From NCBI GenBank assembly GCA_016188865.1, contig JACPGX010000002.1, positions 130,398-194,397 on the forward strand: a DNA stretch of 64,000 nt, in the 5' to 3' direction. The stretch is from Candidatus Nealsonbacteria bacterium (GTDB lineage: Bacteria > Patescibacteriota > Minisyncoccia > Minisyncoccales > MHMH01). Position 1 is the stretch's first letter, and every line of letters begins with the position of its first letter. The notes beneath the pieces were generated by a model. It did not search any database and was not told the origin of the DNA. It was given only the letters and a program-made list of their open reading frames with translations. This document shows positions 14,420-53,099 of the stretch, piece by piece. Both the position numbers and the translations under genes were made by a program.

Positions 14420-16821
14420 AAATTGTACCAATTGCCGAAGATGCCGATATTAAAGCCCGTCAGCTTTAAAAGTACATTCACAAGAGTCCATGCGAAGAAA
14501 ATAAGACTCAAGCCGATGCCAGCGGCTTTCCATAAAGACATTATTTGAGCCATGGCAATGGCTTGCCCTAAGGCCGTGTAAAGCGTTACAGCCGTGGCTA
14601 TAGTTAATAATACCAAAATTATCGGCGTTATTCTAAATAAAAGAAAGTCAAGAATTATTTTTATTGATAAAAAAAGATGTTTGATCTGGCAGGGCTCGCG
14701 TTCATTCCAAGGAGTTTTTTGATTGTCTGTAGCTCTGCCGCAAGGCACTAGTCCGCCTTGGCTCATACCTCCTTCCAAAAAAGTGAAAGTCCATGAGTTA
14801 GACCAGTTGCTGGTTTCCTGGCAATTTTGATCAAGACAGGAGCGGACTTGCCATTGATATCGGCCCAAACATCCCAACTCCGTATAGCTGGAATTGACCA
14901 GCTCGGTTTTTAATGGCGGCACGGAACAGTCTTGGCTTTGTTCTTCAGCCGCTTTAGAAAGCAGTTTGACTTCATATTGGTAAGCCTTGGCTCCTACGAC
15001 TTTTTCCCAAGAAAGAAAATGCTCGTCCGTAAATAACATTCCCCTATTTTGCGGATATGTGGGGCTTAGCGGAGGGGAAATCCGGAATGTTTTAAAATTT
15101 TGAGAACTGCCATAATTGCCGCAAACTTGGCCATTATCACGAATGCAGGTTTTCACTCGCCAACTGTAATTTGTTTCTTGCAGCAAATCCGGAAAATCAA
15201 AAGTGATTTCCGGCTTGTCAGTTATTTTTTCTTCCCCCTTAATTTCAAAGACGTATGATTTGGCGCCGCTTACCGCATCCCATTTAAAATTTACGGGAAT
15301 GGGTATGCCGGCGGCTTCTGTGGCGGGATAAGTCAGATTCGGCGGCTGGCCGGTGGTTTTAAAAGTATAAATATCAGACCAGGAATTTTGGCATTTTTTT
15401 CCTTCATAATCAAAGCAAGAGAGCGCTTGCCATTGGTAAAAAGTGTTAAGCGATAATTCGGGATAGTCAAAAGAGCGACTTCGAGAGGTTCTTGCTAATT
15501 CTTGTTTTGAGTCGATTTTATACCACCAAGAATTAATTCCCGCATCTTTTCGCCAGTCTAATACTAAAGGAAAACCAACTGGCTTTAGCCCTTGCGGGTC
15601 ATCCGGCGGCGCCACCAAGAAAGTTTCGACAGCCGCTTTTTCGCTGGTCTTGAAGGTCCACTGCTGGCTAGGTTCTCCGCAGTCAATGCCGCTATCATCT
15701 GTACATGTGAGAATTTCCCATGCATAGGTGGTGGTTCCCGTGAAAAAGTACATATCCTCGTCTAAAAAATCGGAAAAAAGAGTTTTTTCTATTTGTTCGG
15801 GGTCTCTTCTCTGCTTTCTCAAAACCCAAGAATCACAGAATTCTCTTCCGTTTTTAGCAGCTAGAAGATTGGGGTGGCAGACTTTTTGCCCTCCCTGTAT
15901 TATATAAACGCCGAGGCGGTATGATTCGGCTTTTTCAACGTCGCACCAATCGAGTGTAGTCGGCGTGGAGGTGCCCCCCATATCTAATCCCGCCCAATCG
16001 GCGTCGTAAGGAGCAATAAGTTCCGGGGCCAAGTTGGTTCCAAAACTTTGGCCGTTAGGCCATTCACCGCAGTCCTCCCCTCCCGCATTAAGGCAGGCGC
16101 GGACTCGCCAGAGATAGTCGCCGCCGGATTTTATCTGGCATTCCAGTTTGTAAGCCGAGTCATCAACGGTTTGCAATTGAGTATCGGTTACTATTTTAGA
16201 AAGTGGCGGGTTAACGATATTAAACTCATAAGAGCCGACAGTGCAGAAATTTGGAGATTTAGCCACTTCTTTTTCAACATTATCTTCCCAGCCGAAATTT
16301 ATCGGCAGTTTATATTTAGAGCCATCGGAAACATTTTTTGGCAAAAGGTCGGCGTCGTCCAATGGTTTTAAATCCGGCGCGGGATAGCAGGCGCCTGAAC
16401 ATTGCGGCGTTGACGGGGCCGTGCCCCAATTATTGTAAGTTGCCGGACATATTTGGTAATCAGGCACAGAGCCATAGGGCTTGATCTGGTCGGGCCCGTG
16501 CGGTCCGCTAACTACATTTGTTCCGCCTGAGCTGCTACAGCCATTTGAACAAAACCAATTAACGCATTCGTACCACTCTATTCCCTGTTCCATGGCCCCG
16601 CCGGCTTTCCCGCAGAAATTATTAGCGCATTTATAAACGGCAAAATCGTTACAGCGGTAAGGCGGAGAGGAGCTGCATACTTCTGGCCCCGGGACGCAGG
16701 CTGGCGGCGGGGTGGGGGGCGTTTCTGGAGGAGGCTCCTCTTCGGCTAAGATTAAATTTACAAATAAAAAAGAAGCAAAAACCAGAAAAGCGACAAAAAA
16801 GACAATTAAAAATTTACTCAT
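14416..16821 (-). CDS. Giant Cys-rich repeat surface protein ending in a T4SS pilin (LVPCG) module
   Basis: Signal peptide, then repeated ~90-aa W/C-containing units (YxWRV..C / YQWQ..SC). The C-terminus GGLVPCG...PC...two TM...IFFAWTLVNVLLK parallels the pilin at 24077-24472. Confidence 0.7.
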   Translation of the reverse strand: MSKFLIVFFVAFLVFASFLFVNLILAEEEPPPETPPTPPPACVPGPEVCSSSPPYRCNDFAVYKCANNFCGKAGGAMEQGIEWYECVNWFCSNGCSSSGGTNVVSGPHGPDQIKPYGSVPDYQICPATYNNWGTAPSTPQCSGACYPAPDLKPLDDADLLPKNVSDGSKYKLPINFGWEDNVEKEVAKSPNFCTVGSYEFNIVNPPLSKIVTDTQLQTVDDSAYKLECQIKSGGDYLWRVRACLNAGGEDCGEWPNGQSFGTNLAPELIAPYDADWAGLDMGGTSTPTTLDWCDVEKAESYRLGVYIIQGGQKVCHPNLLAAKNGREFCDSWVLRKQRRDPEQIEKTLFSDFLDEDMYFFTGTTTYAWEILTCTDDSGIDCGEPSQQWTFKTSEKAAVETFLVAPPDDPQGLKPVGFPLVLDWRKDAGINSWWYKIDSKQELARTSRSRSFDYPELSLNTFYQWQALSCFDYEGKKCQNSWSDIYTFKTTGQPPNLTYPATEAAGIPIPVNFKWDAVSGAKSYVFEIKGEEKITDKPEITFDFPDLLQETNYSWRVKTCIRDNGQVCGNYGSSQNFKTFRISPPLSPTYPQNRGMLFTDEHFLSWEKVVGAKAYQYEVKLLSKAAEEQSQDCSVPPLKTELVNSSYTELGCLGRYQWQVRSCLDQNCQETSNWSNSWTFTFLEGGMSQGGLVPCGRATDNQKTPWNEREPCQIKHLFLSIKIILDFLLFRITPIILVLLTIATAVTLYTALGQAIAMAQIMSLWKAAGIGLSLIFFAWTLVNVLLKLTGFNIGIFGNWYNL

Positions 16822-17747
16822 TATTTCATTTTAAAACTTTTAGTCATTTTTATCCAATCTTCGATGCTTAAAGTTTCCGCCCTTTGGGTGGGCTGGATAT
16901 TGTTTGCTAAAAGCCACTCCCCTATTTTATTTTTGTTTATCTTTAGGCTGGCAGACAAATTATTTATTAGCTGCTTTCTCGGTTGGGAAAATCCGGCTTT
17001 GACAATTTTGAAAAAGATTTCCGAAACCGATTTAACACCCGGTGTTTCTCCGTCAACACCGGGTGTTTGACGCGGTTTCGGAAATTCTGGATTCACGGGA
17101 ATAATTTTTATTATTGCTGCGTCTACTTCTGGAGATGGCCAAAAAGAATTCCTTGGGATATAAGAGATAATTTTAGGCTCGGCATAAAATTGCACAGAAA
17201 CCGCCAGAAGGTTCATCCTCGGCGGTTTGGAGCAAATTCTCTGTGCTACCTCCTTCTGCACCACCAGTAATAGATACACGGGTTGCACCCGTGTATTCTC
17301 GAGGAAACGACGGATGACGGGAGCGGTAAGGTAAAAGGGCAGATTGCCGACGACTTTATATCTCAGAAAATCCGATTTCCTCGTTTTAACACCCGGTGTT
17401 TCTGCGTCAACACCGGGTGTTTTTAGGAAATCGGATTTTCTGATATCGTCGCGGATAATCTCCACATTGCCATAGGTTTCACCTATGGATTTTTTAAGTA
17501 TCTCAACCATATTCGGATCTTTTTCTATGGCGATGACTTTTTTAGCTCTCCTTGCTAACTCTTGGGTTAAAACGCCCAAGCCGGGGCCGATTTCCAGTAC
17601 CGTGTCGTTTGGCTGTATGTCGGTGGCCTCGACAATCTGCCGAACAGCTCCACGGTCAATTAAAAAATTCTGGCCGAGTCCCTTGGAGGGTTGGAGATTG
17701 CGGGCCTGGAGGAGGTCTTTAATGACAGATTTGGAAGTTAGGTCCAT
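16821..17747 (-). CDS. rsmA: 16S rRNA (adenine1518/1519-N6)-dimethyltransferase, carrying two in-frame palindromic inserts
   Basis: GQNFLID, VLEIGPGLG (SAM site), VVGNLPFY. 308 aa compared with about 270 aa for typical KsgA. Confidence 0.9.
   Translation of the reverse strand: MDLTSKSVIKDLLQARNLQPSKGLGQNFLIDRGAVRQIVEATDIQPNDTVLEIGPGLGVLTQELARRAKKVIAIEKDPNMVEILKKSIGETYGNVEIIRDDIRKSDFLKTPGVDAETPGVKTRKSDFLRYKVVGNLPFYLTAPVIRRFLENTRVQPVYLLLVVQKEVAQRICSKPPRMNLLAVSVQFYAEPKIISYIPRNSFWPSPEVDAAIIKIIPVNPEFPKPRQTPGVDGETPGVKSVSEIFFKIVKAGFSQPRKQLINNLSASLKINKNKIGEWLLANNIQPTQRAETLSIEDWIKMTKSFKMK
17018..17086. repeat. In-frame palindromic element, copy B (core 17035-17068; 13-nt outer arms)
   Basis: ATTTCCGAAACCG ... 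AACACCCGGTGTT tctccgtc AACACCGGGTGTT ... CGGTTTCGGAAAT. It encodes FPKPRQTPGVDGETPGVKSVSEI in rsmA. Confidence 0.85.
17363..17443. repeat. In-frame palindromic element, copy A (core 17388-17421; 19-nt perfect outer arms)
   Basis: TCAGAAAATCCGATTTCCT ... AACACCCGGTGTT tctgcgtc AACACCGGGTGTT ... AGGAAATCGGATTTTCTGA. It encodes RKSDFLKTPGVDAETPGVKTRKSDFL. Confidence 0.9.
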
Positions 17748-17777: not shown

Positions 17778-17820
17778 GGGAGGTCCGACCTCCGTCTAGA
17801 TTTGGCGGAGGTCGGACCTC
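17778..17820. repeat. Double-hairpin palindromic element, copy 2
   Basis: GGGAGGTCCGACCTCC gtctagatttggc GGAGGTCGGACCTC, in the divergent rsmA / LysM-M23 intergenic region. Confidence 0.8.
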
Positions 17821-17880: not shown

Positions 17881-19005
17881 ATGGAAAGCCTGTTAGGTTT
17901 GCCCCAGATACTAAGGAAAAGATGGCTGAAAAGAGCGATTCGGGGGCTTAAAAAATCAAAAATAAGGATTTTGCGGGATTTTAAGGGTTCTTCAAGAGAT
18001 CCCTTGTTTTATTTAGGCACGCTAGCGGTTATTTTATTCGGATTTATCGCTGTTTTGGCGCCAGCCACCGTTAACTCGCCTCTTTTAGCTGAAGACGCTT
18101 TATCGCTAAGGGGAGCTTTTATTATTCCAGCGGAAAAGATACAAGAGTCTCCCGATTTGAGTATTATACAGGGCAACAGCTTAGCCGCTGTTTCGCCTCC
18201 TATTTTGGTAACCCCCCAGGTTTTAGGGGCGCTAGTCGGGGGTGGAGATTTTAGTTGGCAAGAAAAAGAAGTGGTTGAATATGAAATCCAGCCGGGGGAT
18301 AACCTGTGGTCGATTGCCGAGAAATTTAACGTTTCCCTTGAGACTATTTTATGGGCGAATAATCTTAATAAGAACTCTTTGATTCAAATTGGTCAAAAAT
18401 TAGTGATTTTGCCGGTTTCAGGCATTAGCCATCAAGTTGGTAGGGGCGACACTGTTTCGCGAATCGCTCAGACTTACAAAACTAAAATTGATGATATTAT
18501 CGCTTTCAATGATTTATCCGGAGAAGGAGACATCTATATCGGAGATATTTTGATTATTCCCAACGGAGTCCAGCCTCCGCCGGTTATTTATGCTCCTAAA
18601 CTTGTTCCATTGGCTTCCAGTTACTTTCTCTGTCCGATTTCCGAGCCCTGCAGGGTCACTCAAGGTTTACATTGGTACAATGCTATTGATTTTAGCCATG
18701 GTAAGTGCGGAGATCCGATTTATGCGGCAGCTGCCGGCACAATACAAAAGGTTAAACTAACTAATTCTACGTCCAGATGGGCTTTTGGCGGAGGCGGCAA
18801 CCATTTGACCATCCTGCACCCCAATGGCGTAGTCACCTATTACGGTCACTTACAAGCGGCACTAGTAAATCCGGGCGATTATATTTCCCAGGGTCAGATG
18901 ATTGCTATTATGGGCGGCCAACCAGGCACTCCCGGCGCTGGCAAATCAACTGCTTGCCACGTGCACTTCGGAGTTACCGGAGCCAAGAATCCGTTTGCAA
19001 AATAA
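17881..19005 (+). CDS. LysM-domain M23 family peptidoglycan endopeptidase
   Basis: Two LysM repeats (YEIQPGDNLWSIAEKF, HQVGRGDTVSRIAQTY). M23 motifs HLTILH...YGHL and CHVHFGV. Confidence 0.85.
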   Translation: MESLLGLPQILRKRWLKRAIRGLKKSKIRILRDFKGSSRDPLFYLGTLAVILFGFIAVLAPATVNSPLLAEDALSLRGAFIIPAEKIQESPDLSIIQGNSLAAVSPPILVTPQVLGALVGGGDFSWQEKEVVEYEIQPGDNLWSIAEKFNVSLETILWANNLNKNSLIQIGQKLVILPVSGISHQVGRGDTVSRIAQTYKTKIDDIIAFNDLSGEGDIYIGDILIIPNGVQPPPVIYAPKLVPLASSYFLCPISEPCRVTQGLHWYNAIDFSHGKCGDPIYAAAAGTIQKVKLTNSTSRWAFGGGGNHLTILHPNGVVTYYGHLQAALVNPGDYISQGQMIAIMGGQPGTPGAGKSTACHVHFGVTGAKNPFAK

Positions 19006-19034
19006 AATGTAACGGGTACGACCCGTTACATTTT
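19004..19034. terminator. Bidirectional intrinsic terminator
   Basis: aaaaTGTAACGGGTacgACCCGTTACAtttt: perfect 13-14 bp stem flanked by A and T runs, between convergent genes. Confidence 0.8.
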
Positions 19035-19036
19035 AT

Positions 19037-19405
19037 TTATTTAGAGCACTTCATGCAGAATCTGGCTTCGGGCGAGACTTTTAACCGGTCTTCGTCGATA
19101 TCCTTGTCGCAATTCTCGCATTTTCCATATTTGTTATTTGCTATTTTTTCCAGAGCTAAATCAATATTTTTGAGTCTAAGCTCTAAGGTGTGTTCAACTG
19201 ATAAACGACCCTCGTATTCTTCAACTTCGTCAGCTGCCGACTCTAAAGCAGCTCCGCCAAACTCACCGTTAAATTTAGGGAACTTGGAATCCCAGTCCCC
19301 CTTTAGATTAGGATCTTTATCAGCAAAAGTTTTTAGCTGCTCCTCAATGGCAGCTTTTTCTTTTTCTAGTTTTTCTTTGAGTTCTGCGACTAAATTTTTA
19401 TTCAT
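19037..19405 (-). CDS. DksA/TraR-family C4 zinc-finger protein
   Basis: Coiled-coil N-terminus; C-terminal CENC...(x17)...CMKC. Confidence 0.75.
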   Translation of the reverse strand: MNKNLVAELKEKLEKEKAAIEEQLKTFADKDPNLKGDWDSKFPKFNGEFGGAALESAADEVEEYEGRLSVEHTLELRLKNIDLALEKIANNKYGKCENCDKDIDEDRLKVSPEARFCMKCSK

Positions 19406-25467: not shown

Positions 25468-25496
25468 ATTGTAGCAAACTTTATAAAGTTAGTCAA
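25468..25496 (-). promoter_or_regulatory. Sigma70-type promoter of the HTH-Fic gene (TTGACT-17-TACAAT)
   Basis: The minus strand reads TTGACTaactttataaagtttgcTACAAT. The spacer is occupied by a 14-bp palindrome. Confidence 0.6.
25477..25490. promoter_or_regulatory. Putative operator 1: perfect palindrome AACTTTATAAAGTT
   Basis: Sits exactly between the -35 and -10 elements of the HTH-Fic promoter. Confidence 0.55.
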
Positions 25497-25505
25497 AAAC
25501 AGCCG

Positions 25506-25519
25506 AACTTTATAAAGTT
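25506..25519. promoter_or_regulatory. Putative operator 2: identical palindrome AACTTTATAAAGTT
   Basis: Second exact copy, 29 bp centre-to-centre from operator 1. Confidence 0.55.
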
Positions 25520-25583: not shown

Positions 25584-25656
25584 TGCCCCCGGCAAGAGTC
25601 GAACTTGCAATCTTCTGCTTCGAAGGCAGACATGTTATCCATTACACCACGGGGAC
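25584..25656 (-). tRNA. tRNA-Arg (anticodon TCG)
   Basis: GTCCCCG TG GTGT AATGGATA ACAT G TCTGC CTTCGAA GCAGA AGAT TGCAAG-TTCGACT-CTTGC CGGGGGC A. T-arm boundaries are approximate. Confidence 0.85.
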
Positions 25657-26718: not shown

Positions 26719-28194
26719 ATGGTTATCCCAAAAGAAGTAAAATCCGTCATAGCAAAACTCAAAAAGAAAGGATATGAGGCATATATTGTCGGCGGCTGCG
26801 TCCGCGATTTTTTGCGTGGCGTAGAACCTAAAGATTGGGATATAACTACCAATGCCAAGCCGGAAGAAATCCGCAAGACCTTTGCTAGGAGTTTTTACGA
26901 GAACAAATTTTTAACCGTTACCGTTCAAACGGCTAGTAAAGACCCCACACTTAAGGAAATCGAGGTCACTACCTATCGATCAGAGGCAAAATATACAGAT
27001 AAAAGGCACCCAGACGAAGTGAAATATGCTAAAACCCTAGAAGAAGACTTGGCGAGGAGGGATTTTACGGTGAATGCGATGGCCGTGGGTTTAACACCCG
27101 GTGTTGCACGTGAAACACCGGGTGTTGAGGACCCGTTCGGCGGACAGAAAGACTTAGAAACTAAGTTCCTAAGAACGGTGGGCGAGCCGGAAGAGAGGTT
27201 TGGCGAAGACGCTCTGCGGATGATGAGAGCGGTAAGGTTTGCCGTCACCTTAGGCGAAGATTGGCAGATTGAGCCAAAAACAGCTGAAGCTATAAAGAAA
27301 AATGCCCCATGGCTTCAGGCGATTTCCCACGAGAGAGTTAGAGACGAACTATTGAAAATCATTATGTCGGAAAGGGCGATGGAGGGTATTAGCCTTTTAA
27401 GGGAGCTGACTTTACTAAAGTATATTATTCCGGAGCTTGAGGAGGGTTATGGGGTGGGGCAAAATAAACACCATATTTACAACTGCTACGAACATTCTTT
27501 GCTTTCTTTAAAATACGCTGCTCAAAAAGGGTTTAACATGGAAGTGAGATTATCTGCCCTGCTTCATGATGTGGGTAAGCCAAGAGCAAAGCGAGGCGAG
27601 GGTCAAGATTCCACTTTTTACAATCATGAAGTAATTGGCGCTAGAATGACAGCAGGTATTTTAAACCGTTTAAAATTTCCGACTAAAGAGATTGAGAAAA
27701 TAACAAAGCTGGTAAGATATCACCTTTTCTATTATAATGTGGATGAAGTGGGAGATTCTTCTGTCAGGAGGCTGGTCAGGCAGGTGGGGCCGGAAAACAT
27801 GGAAGAACTTTTGCAGGTAAGGATGTCTGACAGAATCGGCTCGGGCGTGCCTAAGGCCGAGCCGTATAAATTGCGACATTTGAAATACGTAGTTGAGAAA
27901 GTCAGCAGAGATCCGATTTCTGCCAAAATGCTCAAAGCGGATGGGAACGATGTAATGAAGCAGCTGAAAATTGGGCCGGGGCCGAAAATAGGACAAATTT
28001 TGGATGTCTTATTGGGACATGTCCTAAATGACCCGAAGAATAACAAAAAAGAGTGGCTTGAAAAAGAAATTGCCAAATTAGGCAAATTGAGCGATAAAGA
28101 GCTCAAGGATTTAGCCGAAGAGGGCCGCAAAGAACGAGAAAAACTGGAAACAAAACGCGATCAAATGACAAAAAGTAAATATTGGGTAACGTAG
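26719..28194 (+). CDS. cca: CCA-adding enzyme / poly(A) polymerase family with an HD domain, carrying an in-frame palindromic insert
   Basis: GGCVRDFLRG..PKDWDITT, RDFTVNAMA, DPFGG, HD motif LLHDVGKP. Confidence 0.9.
   Translation: MVIPKEVKSVIAKLKKKGYEAYIVGGCVRDFLRGVEPKDWDITTNAKPEEIRKTFARSFYENKFLTVTVQTASKDPTLKEIEVTTYRSEAKYTDKRHPDEVKYAKTLEEDLARRDFTVNAMAVGLTPGVARETPGVEDPFGGQKDLETKFLRTVGEPEERFGEDALRMMRAVRFAVTLGEDWQIEPKTAEAIKKNAPWLQAISHERVRDELLKIIMSERAMEGISLLRELTLLKYIIPELEEGYGVGQNKHHIYNCYEHSLLSLKYAAQKGFNMEVRLSALLHDVGKPRAKRGEGQDSTFYNHEVIGARMTAGILNRLKFPTKEIEKITKLVRYHLFYYNVDEVGDSSVRRLVRQVGPENMEELLQVRMSDRIGSGVPKAEPYKLRHLKYVVEKVSRDPISAKMLKADGNDVMKQLKIGPGPKIGQILDVLLGHVLNDPKNNKKEWLEKEIAKLGKLSDKELKDLAEEGRKEREKLETKRDQMTKSKYWVT
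27093..27126. repeat. In-frame palindromic element, copy C (core only)
   Basis: AACACCCGGTGTT gcacgtga AACACCGGGTGTT, encoding TPGVARETPGV in the loop between NAMA and DPFGG. Confidence 0.85.
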
Positions 28195-37711: not shown

Positions 37712-37740
37712 AAACATACGAGAACCGTTCTCGTATGTTT
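37712..37740. repeat. 29-bp hairpin copy 1 (centre C)
   Basis: aaacatacgagaacCgttctcgtatgttt, ending 1 nt before the ATG at 37742. Confidence 0.9.
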
Positions 37741-37741
37741 T

Positions 37742-38458
37742 ATGCCGATAAAAAGACCGCCAATAATTACCGGAGAAATCTATCATATTGTGATTAAGGC
37801 AGTTGATAGGACAAAACTCTTTCGAGATCAAAGAGATTATTTTAGAATGGTCCACGATTTATTTGAATTTAATGACGAAAAACCTACTTCGCCGTATTAT
37901 CGTCAAGAGCCCAAACATACGAGAACGGTTCTCGTATGTTTGGAAAAAAGACATACTGGCCGGGAATGTCTAGTAGAGATTTTGGCATTTTGCTTAATGT
38001 CGAATCACGTACATTTATTGATAAGACAGTTAAAAGATAATGGAATTAGTAAATTCATGAGAAAGATTGGGGCTGGGTACGGTGGCTACTATAATAAAAA
38101 ATATAAGAGAAGCGGGCATTTATTCCAGGGAAAATATCGAATTGTTTATATTAAAGACGATCAACAATTAATTACAGTTTTTGTTTATATTCACACTAAT
38201 CCAGTAGCCTTATTGGCTCCGGACTGGAAGGAAAAGGGGATTGATAAAAAAGATTTACGGAAAATTATAAAATTTATAGAAGATTATCGATGGTCGAGCT
38301 ATTCAGACTATTTGGGAAAGAAAAATTTTCCATCTTTAACAACCAGAGATTTTTTATTAAATGAATTCGGAGTGGTTAAGGAAGCTCAAAGATTTGTTAA
38401 TGATTGGCTCCAAACTAAGAGAGAATTGGCCGATCTTGAACAAGTAGCTATAGAATAA
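37742..38458 (+). CDS. Y1 (HUH) transposase, IS200-like / RAYT
   Basis: HUH motif SNHVHLLI; catalytic Tyr region VYIHTNPV. Confidence 0.85.
   Translation: MPIKRPPIITGEIYHIVIKAVDRTKLFRDQRDYFRMVHDLFEFNDEKPTSPYYRQEPKHTRTVLVCLEKRHTGRECLVEILAFCLMSNHVHLLIRQLKDNGISKFMRKIGAGYGGYYNKKYKRSGHLFQGKYRIVYIKDDQQLITVFVYIHTNPVALLAPDWKEKGIDKKDLRKIIKFIEDYRWSSYSDYLGKKNFPSLTTRDFLLNEFGVVKEAQRFVNDWLQTKRELADLEQVAIE
37913..37941. repeat. 29-bp hairpin copy 2 (centre G), in-frame inside the transposase CDS
   Basis: aaacatacgagaacGgttctcgtatgttt, encoding KHTRTVLVCL. Confidence 0.9.
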
Positions 38459-38487
38459 AAACATACGAGAACGGTTCTCGTATGTTT
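38459..38487. repeat. 29-bp hairpin copy 3 (centre G)
   Basis: Begins on the nucleotide after the TAA stop (38456-38458). Confidence 0.9.
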
Positions 38488-38490
38488 TGA

Positions 38491-42457: not shown

Positions 42458-43042
42458 ATGAATCTCATTCCAACCGTTATAGAGAAGTCTCAATATGGTG
42501 AGAGGGCCTATGATATCTATTCCCGGCTCTTGAAAGAGAGGATAGTTTTTTTAGCAAGCCCCATTACTGATTCCGTGGCAAATTCAATTATTGCCCAGCT
42601 TTTGTTTTTGGCTTCAAAAGACGCTGATAAAGATATTCAGCTTTACATTAACACTCCGGGCGGTTCTGTTACTGCCGGTTTGGCAATTTACGACACTATG
42701 CAGTATATTAAATGTCCGGTTTCTACGGTTTGCGTAGGATTGGCAGCTTCCATGGGCGCTACCTTGTTGGCAGCCGGCGCCAAAGGCAAAAGGTTTGCCT
42801 TGCCAAATTCGCAGGTGATGATGCATCAGGTGGCCGGGGGAGTGACCGGCGAAGCTATAGAAATTGAAATTACGGCTAAGCAAATAATTAAAATCAAAGA
42901 AAAACTAAACAAGATTTTGGCCAAACATACCGGTCAGTCTCTTGAAAAAGTGGAAAGAGATACTGACCGCGATTTTTATCTTGATGCTCAAGAAGCCAAA
43001 GAATATGGCATTATCGACGAAGTGATTAAGACCAAAGAATAA
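42458..43042 (+). CDS. clpP: ATP-dependent Clp protease proteolytic subunit
   Basis: IPTVIE....[18 protein letters not shown], catalytic [12 protein letters not shown]. Confidence 0.95.
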
Positions 43043-43082
43043 ATAATGGATATCGGATATCCATTATTTACCTCAGATTTCT

Positions 43083-43126
43083 TGGTTTACGAAACCCACT
43101 TAAATTTGAGAGGGTTTCGTAAACCA
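43083..43126. repeat. Double-hairpin palindromic element, copy 3 (different arms, same centre)
   Basis: TGGTTTACGAAACCC acttaaatttgaga GGGTTTCGTAAACCA. Confidence 0.8.
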
Positions 43127-46132: not shown

Positions 46133-47662
46133 ATGAAAGAATTTATACCGCTTTTTGCGGCTATTTTAGCCTTAGCCGCGGGTTCTGTTTTGGGTTATTA
46201 TGCTCGCCAGTCAATCGCCAAGAAGCGCATTGGCACTATCGAGCAAAAGCTTCAGGAGAAGATTTCTCTAGCCCAGAAAGAGCATGACAGGCTTTTAATC
46301 GAAGCCAAAGAAAAAGCTCTAGCTTTTTCAGAAGAGGCCAAAAGAGAAGAGGCCCAATTTAGAAATCGTCTCCTAAAAACCGAACAGCTCTTGTTAAAAA
46401 GAGAGGATGTTTTGGACCAAAAAATTTCCGATTTAGACGCAAAAGAAAAAGATCTTCAGCAAAAATCAGACCAGTTGAAGAAGTCAGAGGAGACCTTGGG
46501 CAGCTTAAGGCAAGAAGCTATTGCGGGTTTGGAAAAAGTTGCAAAATTATCCAAGGAGGAGGCAAAAAAAGAATTATTGGCAAACTGCGAAAAAGAGTTT
46601 GAGCTGGAGATTTTGGAAAAAATGAAAAAACTTGAAGGAGAGGGGAGAGAAAAAATTAATAATCGCGCCAAAGAAATTATTGTTTCGGCTATTCAAAGAT
46701 TTGCTCTTTCGCAGGCTCAAGAAGTAACCACCACCACCGTTGCTCTGCCCAACGATGATATTAAAGGAAAAATTATCGGCAAAGAAGGCAGGAATATAAG
46801 GACTTTGGAAAAAATGACAGGCGTTGAGCTGGTGGTTGATGAAACTCCGGGAGCCGTAGTTATTTCCGGATTTGATCCCATTCGTAGGCATATAGCAAAG
46901 ATTAGCTTAGAAAAATTAGTGCAAGACGGCAGGATACAGCCTGCCAGGATTGAAGAAATCGTTCAGAAGACTCAAGAAGAGGTAGTGTCGCAAATTCAGG
47001 AAGCCGGGCAAGCGGCAATATACGATACAGGCATTGTCGGTTTAGACCCTAAAATTATTCAACTTTTAGGAAGATTGCGTTTTAGGACCAGTTACGGCCA
47101 GAATGTTTTGCTTCATTCAATTGAGGTGAGTCATTTGGCCGGAGCTCTGGCTGCAGAAATCGGAGCCAATGTAGCTGTGGCTAAAAAAGCCGGCCTCCTG
47201 CACGATATTGGCAAAGCAGTCGACCATCAAATTGAAGGTTCCCACGTTGATATAGGCATGAGAATACTGGAAAGATTTGGCGTAGAAAAAGAAGTTATTT
47301 TAGCCATGAAATCGCACCATGAAGATTATCCCGCAGAAACCACAGAAGCGTCTTTAGTGCAAGCCGCTGACCAGATTTCCGGCGCCAGGCCCGGGGCCAG
47401 AAAAGATACTCTGGAAAATTACTTAAAAAGATTGGGCGAGTTGGAGTCAATAGCCACCTCGTTTTCCGGAGTCGATAAGGCCTGGGCATTGCAAGCTGGC
47501 AGGGAAATAAGAGTGTTTGTTAAACCGGAATCGGTCGATGATTTGGGCGCCCAAAAAATGGCAAAAGAAATCGCTCAAAGAATTCAAAACGAACTAAAGT
47601 ATCCTGGAGAAATTAAAATTAATGTGATCAGGGAAAGCAGAGTCGTAGAATATGCTCGTTAA
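46133..47662 (+). CDS. rny: Ribonuclease Y
   Basis: N-terminal TM helix, coiled coil, KH (GKIIGKEGRNIRTLE), HD (LLHDIGKAVDH). Confidence 0.92.
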   Translation: MKEFIPLFAAILALAAGSVLGYYARQSIAKKRIGTIEQKLQEKISLAQKEHDRLLIEAKEKALAFSEEAKREEAQFRNRLLKTEQLLLKREDVLDQKISDLDAKEKDLQQKSDQLKKSEETLGSLRQEAIAGLEKVAKLSKEEAKKELLANCEKEFELEILEKMKKLEGEGREKINNRAKEIIVSAIQRFALSQAQEVTTTTVALPNDDIKGKIIGKEGRNIRTLEKMTGVELVVDETPGAVVISGFDPIRRHIAKISLEKLVQDGRIQPARIEEIVQKTQEEVVSQIQEAGQAAIYDTGIVGLDPKIIQLLGRLRFRTSYGQNVLLHSIEVSHLAGALAAEIGANVAVAKKAGLLHDIGKAVDHQIEGSHVDIGMRILERFGVEKEVILAMKSHHEDYPAETTEASLVQAADQISGARPGARKDTLENYLKRLGELESIATSFSGVDKAWALQAGREIRVFVKPESVDDLGAQKMAKEIAQRIQNELKYPGEIKINVIRESRVVEYAR

Positions 47663-47693
47663 AAAATACACCGGTTCAACCGGTGTATTTTTT
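47663..47693. terminator. Bidirectional terminator
   Basis: aaaaaaTACACCGGttcaaCCGGTGTAtttttt between convergent genes. Confidence 0.8.
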
Positions 47694-47695
47694 AG

Positions 47696-53047: not shown

Positions 53048-53068
53048 CCTTCACTTAGGACTTGGAGT

Positions 53069-53089
53069 GTTAGACATTGAATGTCTAAC
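53069..53089. repeat. 21-bp perfect palindrome GTTAGACATTGAATGTCTAAC (copy 2)
   Basis: Identical to 25541-25561. Lies between tRNA-Gly and hicB. Confidence 0.85.
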
Positions 53090-53099
53090 ATATTGTTTG

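What the first reader, a model, noticed from the sequence alone, without database searches (positions are those of the whole stretch)
17018..17443. Two in-frame hairpin elements (TPGVxxETPGV core) inserted in the essential rRNA methyltransferase gene rsmA
The rsmA CDS contains two copies of the 34-bp core AACACCCGGTGTT-N8-AACACCGGGTGTT (17035-17068 and 17388-17421). Both are read in the same frame, as TPGVDGETPGV and TPGVDAETPGV. Each core is embedded in longer perfect inverted arms that differ between the copies. One copy has 13-nt arms ATTTCCGAAACCG/CGGTTTCGGAAAT. The other has 19-nt arms TCAGAAAATCCGATTTCCT/AGGAAATCGGATTTTCTGA. The result is 69-nt and 81-nt hairpins inside a housekeeping ORF with the reading frame preserved. 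In copy A the two arms are reverse complements, yet both translate to RKSDFL, so the protein carries ...DDIRKSDFL-KTPGVDAETPGVKT-RKSDFL-RYKVVGNLPFY. One RKSDFL looks native when compared with the KsgA motif region before GNLPY. The other looks like an inverted copy of the adjacent target DNA. This suggests an insertion or fold-back mechanism that extends the hairpin into the flank. The protein is 308 aa, compared with about 270 aa for typical KsgA (E. coli 273 aa). The closest known parallel is the Rickettsia palindromic elements, which insert in-frame into ORFs. I am not aware of this particular core.
Basis: partly seen in the sequence, partly recalled or inferred. Interest (0 to 1): 0.8.

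Follow-up and report, generated by a model that had tools for sequence, protein, structure and literature searches.

The report
Translated palindromic mini-repeats in CPR genes
A 34-base double-palindrome repeat sits in frame, and is probably translated as a small surface loop, in two housekeeping genes of a Candidatus Nealsonbacteria genome and in many other ultra-small bacteria; it is a new family of a rare but known kind of selfish DNA (REP/RPE-like repeats inside genes).

Summary
The core AACACCCGGTGTT-N8-AACACCGGGTGTT occurs twice in rsmA (17034-17067, 17388-17421) and a third time in the CCA-adding enzyme gene (27093-27126). All three are read as TPGVxxETPGV. About 0.06 matches are expected by chance.

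The same core lies in 60 loci of other genomes. Most are Patescibacteria, where it usually sits inside long housekeeping ORFs (uvrA, uvrB, trmD, rnhB, comM and others). In 35 of 41 such ORFs it is read in the TPGV frame.

Orthologue comparisons show lineage-specific additions of 10-15 aa in variable loops. The model gives these loops low confidence.

The outer arms are not extra inserted DNA. Alleles with arms have the same length as alleles without them. The arms are native loop sequence remodelled into an inverted repeat, with compensatory changes and loop flips typical of template switching. Arm-plus-core composites also recur in unrelated genes.

A RAYT-like Y1 transposase, itself flanked by odd palindromes, lies in the window (37742-38458). 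It is a candidate mobiliser, but the link is unproven.

Verdict: a new variant of intragenic REP/RPE-like palindromic repeats. The mobility mechanism is inferred.

The parts
16821..17747 (-). rsmA (16S rRNA adenine dimethyltransferase) ORF of 308 aa, the host gene of two copies
   Evidence: ORF listing. Pfam RrnaAD, E 8.8e-51. 100% identical to a protein that NCBI names as from a Candidatus Nealsonbacteria MAG. All 39 invariant columns of a 56-orthologue alignment are kept.
17388..17421 (-). Core copy A: units AACACCCGGTGTT / AACACCGGGTGTT with loop GACGCAGA on the coding strand. Read TPGVDAETPGV (residues 110-120).
   Evidence: The orthologues P0002, P0003, P0004, P0006 and P0009 carry the core at the same site, and most others lack it.
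17363..17443 (-). Composite hairpin A: perfect 19-nt arms (17363-17381 / 17425-17443), linkers AAA and AAAACG, and core A. Each arm, AGRAAATC-S-GATTTYCT, is itself an odd palindrome, so both arms read RKSDFL.
   Evidence: -34.0 kcal/mol, z -12.6. The same arms, linkers and core occur in rnhB (L014:5546) and in a helicase (L054:4417, L065).
17034..17067 (-). Core copy B: loop GACGGAGA on the coding strand. Read TPGVDGETPGV (residues 228-238).
   Evidence: No other RsmA orthologue among the 120 listed has the core at this site.
17017..17085 (-). Composite hairpin B: perfect 13-nt arms ATTTCCGAAACCG / CGGTTTCGGAAAT, linkers CGTCA and AAAT, and core B. The right arm overlaps the native-like (I/V)SEI motif that precedes FFKIV.
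   Evidence: -28.1 kcal/mol, z -7.9. A near-identical composite lies in the atpD-atpC spacer of JACPLM01 (L030:5365).
26719..28194 (+). CCA-adding enzyme / poly(A) polymerase family ORF of 491 aa, the host gene of the third copy
   Evidence: Pfam PolyA_pol, PolyA_pol_RNAbd and HD. PDB alignment to 6ibp.
27093..27126 (+). Core copy C: loop GCACGTGA. Read LTPGVARETPGVE, in the turn between NAMA and DPFGG. The flanking stem is weak.
   Evidence: It adds 7 aa relative to 6ibp. The fold is -21.9 kcal/mol, z -4.2.
37712..38488 (+). Candidate mobilising locus; the link to the repeat is unproven. It is a RAYT-like Y1 (HUH) transposase gene, 37742-38458. The 29-nt odd palindrome AAACATACGAGAAC-S-GTTCTCGTATGTTT flanks it at 37712-37740 (centre C) and 38458-38488 (centre G). 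A third copy lies in frame inside the gene at 37911-37943.
   Evidence: Pfam Y1_Tnp E 7.4e-12, above its cut-off. NCBIfam REP-associated tyrosine transposase scores 50.7 bits, below its cut-off of 80. Hairpins. The gene has the same single context on 4 contigs. A homologue in L006 is flanked by a different odd palindrome.
17780..17820 (.). Intergenic doublet of the same design: GAGGTC-C-GACCTC, 15 nt, GAGGTC-G-GACCTC. It lies in the divergent spacer upstream of rsmA.
   Evidence: -19.4 kcal/mol, z -7.1.

Best explanation
The TPGV core is a very short, non-autonomous palindromic repeat of the REP/REPIN and RPE kind. It consists of two inverted copies of the 13-nt odd palindrome AACACC-S-GGTGTT around a short loop (modal GACGGAGA).

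**Shown**
- Copies have entered many unrelated genes in Patescibacteria.
- The surviving copies lie in variable protein loops, keep the reading frame, and are overwhelmingly in the frame that encodes Thr-Pro-Gly-Val. I read this as evidence that they are translated as small extra loops and that selection filters them at the protein level.
- Each event adds about 30-45 nt. The window's rsmA has +13 aa at site 1 and about +15 aa at site 2. TrmD has +10 aa.

**Inferred from compensatory changes, loop flips and equal-length alleles**
- The perfect hairpin evolves by template switching during replication.
- This keeps the two units complementary and flips the loop.
- It also overwrites one flank with the reverse complement of the other. 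The stem therefore grows into native coding sequence without adding length. RKSDFL/RKSDFL and FPKP/VSEI arose this way.

**Inferred from recurrence**
- Once formed, a whole arm-plus-core hairpin can be copied to other loci.

**Inferred, weakest step**
- Mobilisation in trans is by a hairpin-recognising single-strand DNA enzyme.
- The candidate is the RAYT-like Y1/HUH transposase encoded 10-20 kb away, which is itself flanked by odd palindromes of the same C-S-G-centred design.
- Insertion would go preferentially into single-stranded hairpin tips, which would give the nested arrangement.
For: **Repeat family and spread**
- There are three copies in 64 kb against 0.06 expected.
- There are 60 loci in other genomes. 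32 are labelled Patescibacteria, 14 Planctomycetales, 8 Omnitrophota and 6 other.
- Host ORFs include uvrA, uvrB, two UvrD-like helicases, trmD, rnhB, comM, comF, mnmA, a cysteine desulfurase, aminoacyl-tRNA synthetases, a Mur ligase, nusB and gatB. These were identified from visible motifs.

**Presence or absence among orthologues**
- RsmA.
- RNase HII.
- TrmD.
- DNA-level pair in TrmD: the empty allele reads CCA ATT AAA, and the filled allele reads CCA [ACACCCGGTGTTGGCAGAAAAACACCGGGTGTT] AAA. The net gain is 30 nt, with no target duplication.

**Translation**
- 35 of 41 ORF-embedded copies read TPGV (p = 9e-12 against one third).
- The loop orientation tracks the coding strand in the N11 subfamily.
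- In the AlphaFold2 model the inserts are coil with pLDDT roughly 45-75, between conserved strands and helices.
- All invariant residues of RsmA are kept.

**Hairpin maintenance**
- P0249 has AACTCCCGGTGTT / AACACCGGGAGTT, a synonymous compensatory pair.
- P0005 carries a variant core, AACATGGAATGTT / AACATTCCATGTT.
- The arms covary: T:A in the window against C:G in P0003 and P0004.
- The loop is flipped at the same site in comM (L010 against L021), in rsmA (P0012 against P0004), and in N11 copies (L033 against L052).
- Template switching is documented to produce exactly these footprints (PMC8794818).

**Arms**
- 17 of 66 copies have a perfect flank inverted repeat of at least 7 nt, against 1.5% of control positions.
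- Arm-bearing loops have the modal length.

**Unit conservation**
- All 26 unit bases are identical in P0002 and P0003, which were found by protein search and not by DNA pattern. The genes are only about 70% identical at nucleotide level.

**Candidate enzyme**

**Precedent**
- Intragenic REP dimers encoding 20-30 aa are known, often in uvr, rec and tRNA-modification genes. REP dimers can also sit inside longer palindromes (PMC3733652).
Against: - No transposition event or intermediate is observed.
- The window's Y1 gene is flanked by a different palindrome. That palindrome has no dispersed copy in the window, so nothing ties the enzyme to the TPGV core.
- No Y1 homologue was found next to TPGV units in the fetched loci, apart from one 1 kb away in L006 that again has its own palindrome.
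- The GTAG tag is absent. CGTC is seen only in the N8 loop subfamily.
- The perfect conservation of the units in diverged rsmA orthologues is more than a decaying selfish insert predicts. It could mean function, repeated re-insertion, or conversion between copies.
- Whether arm-only alleles (P0011, P0274, P0198, P0200) are pre-insertion targets or post-excision remnants is unresolved. The TrmD tree is star-like.
- Translation is inferred, not observed.
- Some non-Patescibacteria hits may be chance hairpins or convergent.
Confidence: 0.6

Rival explanations
1. The element inserts and a fold-back step copies the adjacent target in inverted orientation. Extra DNA is added, so the hairpin extends into the flank at the moment of insertion.
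For: - The left RKSDF of rsmA matches the family motif D-[IV]-[LR]-K-x-D-[FL].
- The right VSEI matches the native ISEI motif seen in orthologues.
- In TrmD the left arm encodes the conserved EVF.
- In the N11 subfamily the arms differ from copy to copy and follow host base composition.
Against: - Arm-bearing alleles are no longer than arm-less ones. In TrmD, EVFCPIKAKYWR and EVFEPAKGKKWR are both 12 aa. In RsmA, P0011 has the modal length. The arms therefore replace sequence.
- Arm-only alleles exist without the core.
- Identical arms, linkers and core occur in unrelated genes.
Confidence: 0.12
2. The whole 69-87-nt nested hairpins, arms included, are the mobile units. There would be several composite subfamilies, and the resemblance of the arms to native motifs would be coincidence or a survivorship effect.
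For: - Composite A occurs in rsmA, rnhB and a helicase, in two reading frames and both orientations.
- Composite B occurs in rsmA and in an atp spacer. Its arms match over 12 of 13 nt and its linkers are near-identical (CGTC/TAAT against CGTCA/AAAT).
Against: - Many cores have no arms (copy C, comM, comF).
- The arms in TrmD and in the N11 copies are locus-specific.
- Arm-bearing loops have native length.
- Both rsmA and rnhB natively carry K/R-S-D-F-like motifs at the arm position.
Confidence: 0.15
3. The hairpin is kept because it has a function as nucleic acid. It could be a protein-binding site or an RNA/DNA structure, for example an antisense terminator, a processing site or a regulatory site. 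On this view it is not mainly selfish DNA.
For: - All 26 unit bases are conserved, third codon positions included, in rsmA orthologues that are about 70% identical overall.
- Compensatory changes keep the stem.
- The same 13-mer lies at the centre of longer palindromes in Planctomycetales.
- In one Patescibacteria single-cell genome the copies are intergenic and followed by T runs.
Against: - The positions are scattered over unrelated genes and differ among close relatives.
- Copies decay or are partly deleted in TrmD (P0242, P0254, P0335).
- No Rfam family matches.
- Template switching alone explains the compensatory changes (PMC8794818).
- There is no consistent position relative to gene ends in Patescibacteria.
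Confidence: 0.1
4. There is no mobility at all. Every copy would arise locally by template switching, or the peptide TPGVxxETPGV would be an ancestral or convergently selected protein motif.
For: Template switching can create hairpins de novo (PMC8794818). The window has 28 perfect hairpins with stems of at least 10 bp, against about 3 in shuffles. One of them is a native-length hairpin in rsmA at 17274-17296.
Against: - The identical 26 bases, with identical codon choice, occur in dozens of unrelated genes and genomes.
- Six ORF-embedded copies are read in other frames, as HPVL or NTRC.
- The distribution among orthologues is clade-restricted.
Confidence: 0.03

Closest known systems
Intragenic REP dimers (GTAG- and CGTC-tagged REPs; Di Nocera et al. 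2013, PMC3733652) and REPINs mobilised by RAYTs (PMC3116915)
   Same: - The units are short palindromes arranged as inverted doublets that can fold singly or as one long hairpin.
- Copies inside ORFs encode short peptides, sometimes twice in one gene, and often in uvrA, uvrB, uvrD and tRNA/rRNA-modification genes.
- Dimers are sometimes nested inside longer palindromes.
- Copies are extragenic in some hosts (a Planctomycetales MAG and a Patescibacteria single-cell genome).
- A RAYT-like Y1 gene flanked by inverted palindromes is present in the window.
- rc(CGTC) abuts unit 1 in the modal loop GACGGAGA.
   Different: - The units are much shorter (13 nt; the described CGTC REPs have stems of 8-9 bp and loops of 4-5 nt) and are perfect odd palindromes.
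- Single units are rare (7 in about 505 kb of fetched sequence, in three non-window loci) and none occurs in the window.
- There is no GTAG tag, and CGTC is absent from the N11 subfamily.
- In Patescibacteria most copies are intragenic.
- The resident Y1 gene is flanked by a different palindrome.
- The host phylum has not been reported for such elements in the literature I could search.
Rickettsia palindromic elements (RPE-1 to RPE-8). Basis: my own knowledge of Ogata et al. 2000, plus PMC3733652, which equates RPE-4 and RPE-6 with CGTC REPs.
   Same: - Both are palindromic repeats inserted in frame into essential genes.
- The reading frame is consistent and the site is a tolerated surface position.
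- No dedicated transposase is known.
- The host is a reduced-genome bacterium dependent on other cells.
   Different: - RPE-1 is about 100-150 bp and unrelated in sequence. Here the core is 34 bp.
- The stems here are rebuilt from host sequence.
- The family here spans many lineages of a whole superphylum rather than one genus.
Template-switch mutations at quasi-palindromes (PMC8794818, PMC5453318)
   Same: The footprints match: compensatory double changes, loop inversion in place, and conversion of flanks into perfect reverse-complement repeats without any change in length.
   Different: Template switching is local. It does not explain how the identical core reached unrelated genes and genomes.
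MITEs derived from insertion sequences (review PMC10969869)
   Same: Both are small, non-autonomous, inverted-repeat elements that can land in frame in genes.
   Different: The one empty/filled pair shows no target-site duplication. No parent IS with matching ends was found. The size is far below that of typical MITEs.

Membership tests
REP / REPIN (RAYT-associated) | Short palindromic unit able to form a stem-loop | tested here: met
   The unit AACACC-S-GGTGTT is palindromic. The doublet folds at -14.6 kcal/mol, z -5.8. At 13 nt the unit is at or below the lower size limit of described REPs (PMC3733652, Table 1).
REP / REPIN (RAYT-associated) | Units paired in inverted orientation (REPIN / head-to-head dimer) | tested here: met
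   All window copies and 66 non-redundant copies elsewhere are doublets with the centre base flipped, C then G. Only 7 single units occur in about 505 kb of fetched sequence.
REP / REPIN (RAYT-associated) | Conserved unpaired GTAG or CGTC tag at one end of the unit | tested here: inconclusive
   There is no GTAG. CGTC is the second commonest loop-side tetramer (10 cases), which comes from the N8 loop GACGGAGA. It is absent from the N11 and Planctomycetales subfamilies.
REP / REPIN (RAYT-associated) | Predominantly extragenic location | tested here: not met
   41 of 67 non-redundant copies lie in open frames of at least 150 aa. The feature is met only in the Planctomycetales MAGs and in one Patescibacteria single-cell genome.
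REP / REPIN (RAYT-associated) | A single-copy RAYT gene flanked by the same repeat | tested here: not met
   A Y1_Tnp gene is present and appears to be single copy. However, it is flanked by AAACATACGAGAAC-S-GTTCTCGTATGTTT, not by the TPGV unit. The homologue in L006 is flanked by yet another palindrome.
REP / REPIN (RAYT-associated) | High copy number per genome | not testable with these tools
   Only 64 kb of this genome is available, and it holds 3 copies. The genome is not among the species representatives that were scanned.
Rickettsia palindromic elements (RPE) | In-frame insertion in ORFs with a preferred reading frame | tested here: met
   35 of 41 copies are in the TPGV frame.
Rickettsia palindromic elements (RPE) | Insertion at tolerated surface positions, with the host protein otherwise intact | tested here: met
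   In the AlphaFold2 model the insert segments are low-confidence coil between conserved elements. The PDB alignments place them in loops. The invariant residues are kept. Function itself was not tested.
Rickettsia palindromic elements (RPE) | Sequence relationship to RPE consensus sequences and a rickettsial host | not tested
   No RPE sequences were compared. The host is Patescibacteria, so this would be at most an analogue.
IS-derived MITE | Target-site duplication flanking the element | tested here: not met
   In TrmD the empty allele reads CCAATTAAAGC and the filled allele reads CC[AACACC...GGTGTT]AAAGC. There is no duplication. The AATT of the empty allele equals the outer AA..TT of the core. 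This rests on a single pair.
IS-derived MITE | A parent IS with the same terminal inverted repeats | tested here: not met
   No pair of units encloses a transposase in any fetched locus.
Template-switch-generated hairpin | One arm is the reverse complement of adjacent native sequence, with no length change | tested here: met
   TrmD and RsmA sites 1 and 2.
Template-switch-generated hairpin | Simultaneous compensatory changes and loop inversions | tested here: met
   P0249, P0005, and the window against P0003. Loop flips: L010 against L021, P0012 against P0004, L033 against L052.
Template-switch-generated hairpin | Purely local origin of all the hairpin sequence | tested here: not met
   The same core occurs in dozens of unrelated loci.

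The most novel reading that the evidence does not exclude
Patescibacteria may harbour a hairpin system defined by structure rather than by sequence. RAYT-like Y1 enzymes would recognise a small apical module: an odd palindrome with a C-S-G centre, of which AACACC-S-GGTGTT is one type conserved across phyla. They would insert it into single-stranded hairpin tips. Replication template switching would then grow, flip and homogenise the stems. Together these two processes would build nested palindromes that continually create new peptide loops in essential proteins. Composite hairpins assembled from host coding sequence at one gene, such as rsmA, would afterwards become mobile themselves.
Probability: 0.2. 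Interest if true: 0.8.

Novelty: new variant of a known kind. Interest (0 to 1): 0.6.

Why it matters
In-frame palindromic repeats in essential genes have been known since the Rickettsia RPEs. How they move, and why proteins tolerate them, has remained open, partly because few genomes carry them.

Here the same phenomenon appears across a very large, heavily sampled radiation. Metagenomes already provide several kinds of useful allele:
- empty and filled alleles;
- arm-only and decaying alleles;
- compensatory variants.

A candidate hairpin-specific enzyme sits nearby.

This makes several questions directly testable:
- whether there is a target preference for hairpin tips;
- what role template switching plays in building stems out of coding sequence;
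- whether such repeats are a regular source of new surface loops in the streamlined proteins of ultra-small bacteria.

There is also a practical consequence. These segments inflate protein lengths, break assemblies at hairpins, and can mislead alignments of marker genes.

Tried and rejected
1. **Viral contig scan for the core.** It gave 0 hits, so there is no evidence for a phage vector.
2. **Metagenome scan for arm A plus core.** It returned only two loci, both already-known contexts. It spent the cap for little gain.
3. **phmmer with IS200, IS608 and E. coli RAYT sequences typed from memory.** It found nothing in any locus. This was a false negative, because Pfam later identified a Y1 gene in the window.
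4. **Rfam scan of the whole window.** It found only 7 tRNAs.
5. **Literature search.** No paper contains the core string, and I found none describing such repeats in Patescibacteria.
6. **Neighbour-joining tree of TrmD with the loop masked.** The tree is star-like. It gives only a weak hint that the arm-only allele nests among filled ones.
7. **Search for a target-site duplication or a flank consensus.** None was clear, apart from a frequent AAA after unit 2.
8. **DNA-uptake-sequence idea.** Rejected, because single units are rare and none occurs in the window.
9. **Assembly or amplification artefact.** Rejected, because the copies occur in independent projects and assemblers, are in frame, and show decay series.
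10. **PDB search with the Y1 protein.** No significant hit.
Full report
**1. What is in the sequence**

The window comes from a Candidatus Nealsonbacteria genome. Its RsmA protein is 100% identical to a protein that NCBI names as from such a MAG. GC content is 41%.

The 13-mer AACACC-S-GGTGTT occurs six times in the window, always as three pairs separated by 8 nt:
- 17034-17067
- 17388-17421
- 27093-27126

About 0.06 matches are expected, and none of 100 shuffles reached six.

The first two pairs lie in the rsmA ORF (16821..17747, minus strand, 308 aa). All three are read as TPGVxxETPGV.

The perfect outer arms are as described: 13 nt around copy B and 19 nt around copy A. As single-stranded DNA the composites fold far better than shuffles, at -28.1 kcal/mol (z -7.9) and -34.0 kcal/mol (z -12.6).

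One detail explains the double RKSDFL. Each arm, AGRAAATC-S-GATTTYCT, is itself an odd palindrome, so it encodes the same peptide on either strand. K-S-D-F written AAA TCS GAT TTY is a natural palindrome.

**2. The inserts are lineage-specific additions in loops**

I examined 120 RsmA orthologues.

*Site 1* lies between GDI[LR]K and YKVVGNLPFY.
- The modal segment is 11-13 aa. The window has 26 aa.
- The TPGV core is present only in a subset: P0002, P0003, P0004, P0006, P0009, and P0012 and its near relatives.
- Other orthologues have arms only (P0011, P0019), other palindromic cores (P0005, P0007/P0013), or unrelated sequence.

*Site 2* is the domain linker before FFKIVKAGF.
- Only the window has the core.
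- The modal linker is about 10 aa. The window has 25 aa.

Against B. subtilis KsgA (PDB 6ifs), site 1 adds 9 aa and site 2 about 14 aa. In the CCA enzyme the insert adds 7 aa in the turn between NAMA and DPFGG (6ibp).

An AlphaFold2 model built on 56 orthologues (mean pLDDT 80) places both rsmA inserts in coil of low to moderate confidence (10-residue block means 44-75). They fall between E95-99 and E131-135, and between E210-217 and H241-252. All invariant residues are retained. The gene therefore looks functional.

**3. It is a dispersed repeat family**

An exact-pattern scan of one genome per species returned 60 loci:

| Label | Loci |
|---|---|
| Patescibacteria lineages (Nealson-, Giovannoni-, Nomura-, Andersen-, Wildermuth-, Staskawiczbacteria, \"Saccharibacteria\", unclassified) | 32 |
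| Planctomycetales MAGs | 14 |
| Omnitrophota | 8 |
| Others | 6 |

Some of the isolated non-Patescibacteria hits could be chance hairpins.

In Patescibacteria most copies lie in long ORFs. From the visible motifs these are uvrA, uvrB, two UvrD-like helicases, trmD, rnhB, comM, comF, mnmA, a cysteine desulfurase, two aminoacyl-tRNA synthetases, a Mur ligase, nusB and gatB.

In one Planctomycetales MAG and in one Patescibacteria single-cell genome the copies are intergenic. Their units are embedded in longer palindromes, which is ordinary REP behaviour.

Two subfamilies stand out:
- **N8**, with the loop consensus GACGRARA.
- **N11**, which sits between GGGAA and GAGGAG.

No copy was found in viral contigs.

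**4. Evidence that the copies are translated and filtered by selection**

Of 41 copies in open frames of at least 150 aa, 35 read the first unit as TPGV (p = 9e-12 against one third). Five of the six frames are open.

In the N11 subfamily the loop orientation follows the coding strand, even when the flanks are in the opposite orientation. The result is E/K-rich rather than F/L-rich loops.

This is the behaviour described for RPE-1 (my own knowledge) and for intragenic REPs (PMC3733652).

**5. An empty/filled pair at DNA level**

TrmD orthologues at 75-85% identity give the cleanest comparison.

| Allele | Protein | Sequence |
|---|---|---|
| Modal | (several) | YTRP-EVFEPAKGKKWR-VPKV, a 12-aa loop |
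| Filled | P0241 | GAAGTATTTTGCCCA-ACACCCGGTGTTGGCAGAAAAACACCGGGTGTT-AAAGCAAAATACTGG |
| Arm-only | P0274 | GAAGTATTTTGCCCA-ATT-AAAGCAAAATACTGG |

- The net difference between filled and arm-only is 30 nt (10 aa).
- There is no target duplication.
- The AATT left in the arm-only allele equals the outer AA..TT of the core.
- The 10-nt arms AGTATTTTGC/GCAAAATACT are present in the arm-only allele too.
- That allele has the same 12-aa loop length as arm-less orthologues.

The arms are therefore native loop sequence converted into an inverted repeat, not added DNA. The conserved EVF side served as the template.

The same logic holds for rsmA. P0011 (arms only) has the modal length. The window protein exceeds it by 26 aa, roughly two units of 13 aa.

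**6. Hairpin-level evolution**

- **P0249 (TrmD).** It has AACTCCCGGTGTT / AACACCGGGAGTT. These are two synonymous changes that keep the 13-bp stem but break each unit's own palindromy.
- **P0005 (RsmA).** It carries AACATGGAATGTT-N8-AACATTCCATGTT in the same place. Five changes per unit remain perfectly complementary.
- **Arm covariation.** The window arms have T:A where P0003 and P0004 have C:G. The change is non-synonymous on both sides.
- **Loop flips.** Loops are inverted at the same site in comM (L010 GACGAAAA against L021 TCTCCGTC), in rsmA (P0012 against P0004), and between N11 copies (L033 against L052).
- **Decay.** Decay and partial deletion also occur (P0242, P0254, P0335).

These are the footprints documented for template switching at hairpins during replication (PMC8794818).

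Flank inverted repeats are frequent but not universal. 17 of 66 copies have at least 7 perfect nt, against 1.5% of control positions.

**7. The arms are not only local**

- Arm A with its linkers (AAA / AAARCG) and core recurs in RNase HII of another Nealsonbacteria genome, in the opposite orientation (VRKSDFLVLTPGVSSPTPGVFGKSDFL).
- It also recurs in a UvrD-like helicase, read in another frame (SGNPIFPKHPVLTEKHRVLKRENRISK).
- Arm B plus core fills an atpD-atpC spacer.

RNase HII orthologues also show arm-only alleles (P0198, P0200). Their native motif x-D-F-x-x-[IL]-[KR]-DSKKL coincides with the right arm.

So either natural palindromes such as KSDF (AAATCSGATTT) and ISEI (ATTTCSGAAAT) are preferred landing sites, or composites built at one gene are later copied as units. 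The helicase and spacer cases favour the second reading for at least some events. I cannot separate the two fully.

**8. Unit conservation**

P0002 and P0003 were found by protein similarity, so they are not biased by the DNA pattern. Both keep all 26 unit bases, including eight third codon positions. Their genes are only about 70% identical to the window's, and their loops and arms vary.

This is stronger than neutral decay predicts. It points to re-insertion, to conversion among copies, or to a constraint on the DNA or RNA itself. I keep a functional-hairpin rival at about 0.1.

**9. A candidate enzyme**

The ORF at 37742..38458 is a Y1 (HUH) transposase.
- Pfam Y1_Tnp gives E 7.4e-12, above its cut-off.
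- The best NCBIfam match is REP-associated tyrosine transposase, but below its cut-off.
- SNHVHLL and YIHTNPV motifs are visible.
- The gene is flanked by the 29-nt odd palindrome AAACATACGAGAAC-S-GTTCTCGTATGTTT, with centre C on the left and G on the right.
- A third copy of that palindrome lies in frame inside the gene.
- The identical protein occurs on four contigs in one genomic context.

A homologue (E 6e-39) lies 1 kb from a TPGV copy in another Nealsonbacteria genome. It is flanked in the same way by a different 35-nt odd palindrome.

All the palindromic units met here share a C-S-G centre (notes).

This is the REPtron arrangement known for RAYTs. However, the flanking palindromes are not the TPGV unit, so the link to the TPGV family is an inference.

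**10. Comparison with known systems and verdict**

The closest described phenomenon is intragenic REP dimers and RPEs. They are inverted doublets of short palindromes inside ORFs, encoding 20-30 aa, sometimes twice per gene, often in uvr and tRNA-modification genes, and sometimes nested in longer palindromes (PMC3733652).

Membership in the REP/REPIN family proper fails on three points:
- the extragenic bias;
- the cognate-RAYT criterion;
- at least partly, the tag criterion.

MITE criteria (target duplication, parent IS) are not met. Template switching explains how the stems evolve but not how the core spreads.

I therefore class this as a new variant of a known kind. What is new is the family itself, the host superphylum, the extreme shortness and perfect odd-palindrome design, and the documented rebuilding of stems from host coding sequence.

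The library held no paper with the core string and none describing such repeats in Patescibacteria.

Noticed in passing
window 37712-38488: A RAYT-like Y1/HUH transposase gene (37742-38458) is flanked by inverted copies of the 29-nt odd palindrome AAACATACGAGAAC-S-GTTCTCGTATGTTT. It carries a third copy in frame inside its own coding sequence (37911-37943, PKHTRTVLVCLE). The gene has a single genomic context on four contigs.
   Followed up: partly
window 17780-17820: A perfect doublet of another odd palindrome (GAGGTC-C-GACCTC, 15 nt, GAGGTC-G-GACCTC) lies in the divergent spacer between rsmA and the LysM/M23 peptidase gene. It has the same architecture as the TPGV core. Its role is unknown.
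   Followed up: partly
window 17274-17296: A perfect hairpin with a 10-bp stem and 3-nt loop (ATACACGGGT tgc ACCCGTGTAT) lies inside rsmA and encodes NTRVQPVY. The segment has the normal orthologue length, so it looks like native sequence turned into a hairpin without any insertion.
   Followed up: partly
window, whole (for example 19000-19038, 43040-43070, 43083-43126, 47660-47694, 53068-53090): The window has 28 perfect hairpins with stems of at least 10 bp, against about 3 in shuffled sequence. Many sit at gene ends and have 3-nt loops, which is terminator-like. The hairpin at 47660-47694 contains ACACCGGT/ACCGGTGT, which resembles half of the TPGV unit.
   Followed up: no
RsmA P0015/P0021/P0048; RNase HII P0139/P0155/P0158/P0173/P0177/P0216; L029 ORF (glycosyltransferase-like): A second, longer in-frame element family recurs in loops of unrelated Patescibacteria proteins. 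It encodes roughly ...NPKQ(I/Y)QNSKFK.SKR..L.FG.L.F....(S/N)(D/N)LGFRIS.... Many other AT-rich palindromic or repeated peptides (KFKIQNSKFKI, ILNTKYQILNTK, RSDL...RSDL) fill the same loops.
   Followed up: no
TrmD orthologues P0285, P0323, P0343: Here the loop reads YTRP-PKFF...RRA(R/S)PEVWS-VP in place of YTRP-EVF...KKWR-VP. It looks as if the loop region had been inverted in place. Several other insert types share this one TrmD loop.
   Followed up: no
L004, L011, L016 (Omnitrophota): Copies with a 22-nt loop lie inside giant ORFs (the two largest about 1,900-2,500 aa) and read TPGVK(F/S)G(E/R).E(G/V)KHRVL. The three loops are homologous to one another. Whether these belong to the same mobile family is not known.
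   Followed up: no
window 25477-25519: Two direct copies of the 14-nt palindrome AACTTTATAAAGTT lie 15 nt apart in the spacer next to tRNA-Arg (25584-25656) and the Fic/HTH gene.
   Followed up: no
L003:2630-2663: A doublet variant with a W centre (AACACCTGGTGTT-N8-AACACCAGGTGTT) lies beside two canonical copies in one ORF region. The centre base is free, but it is still flipped between the two units.
   Followed up: no
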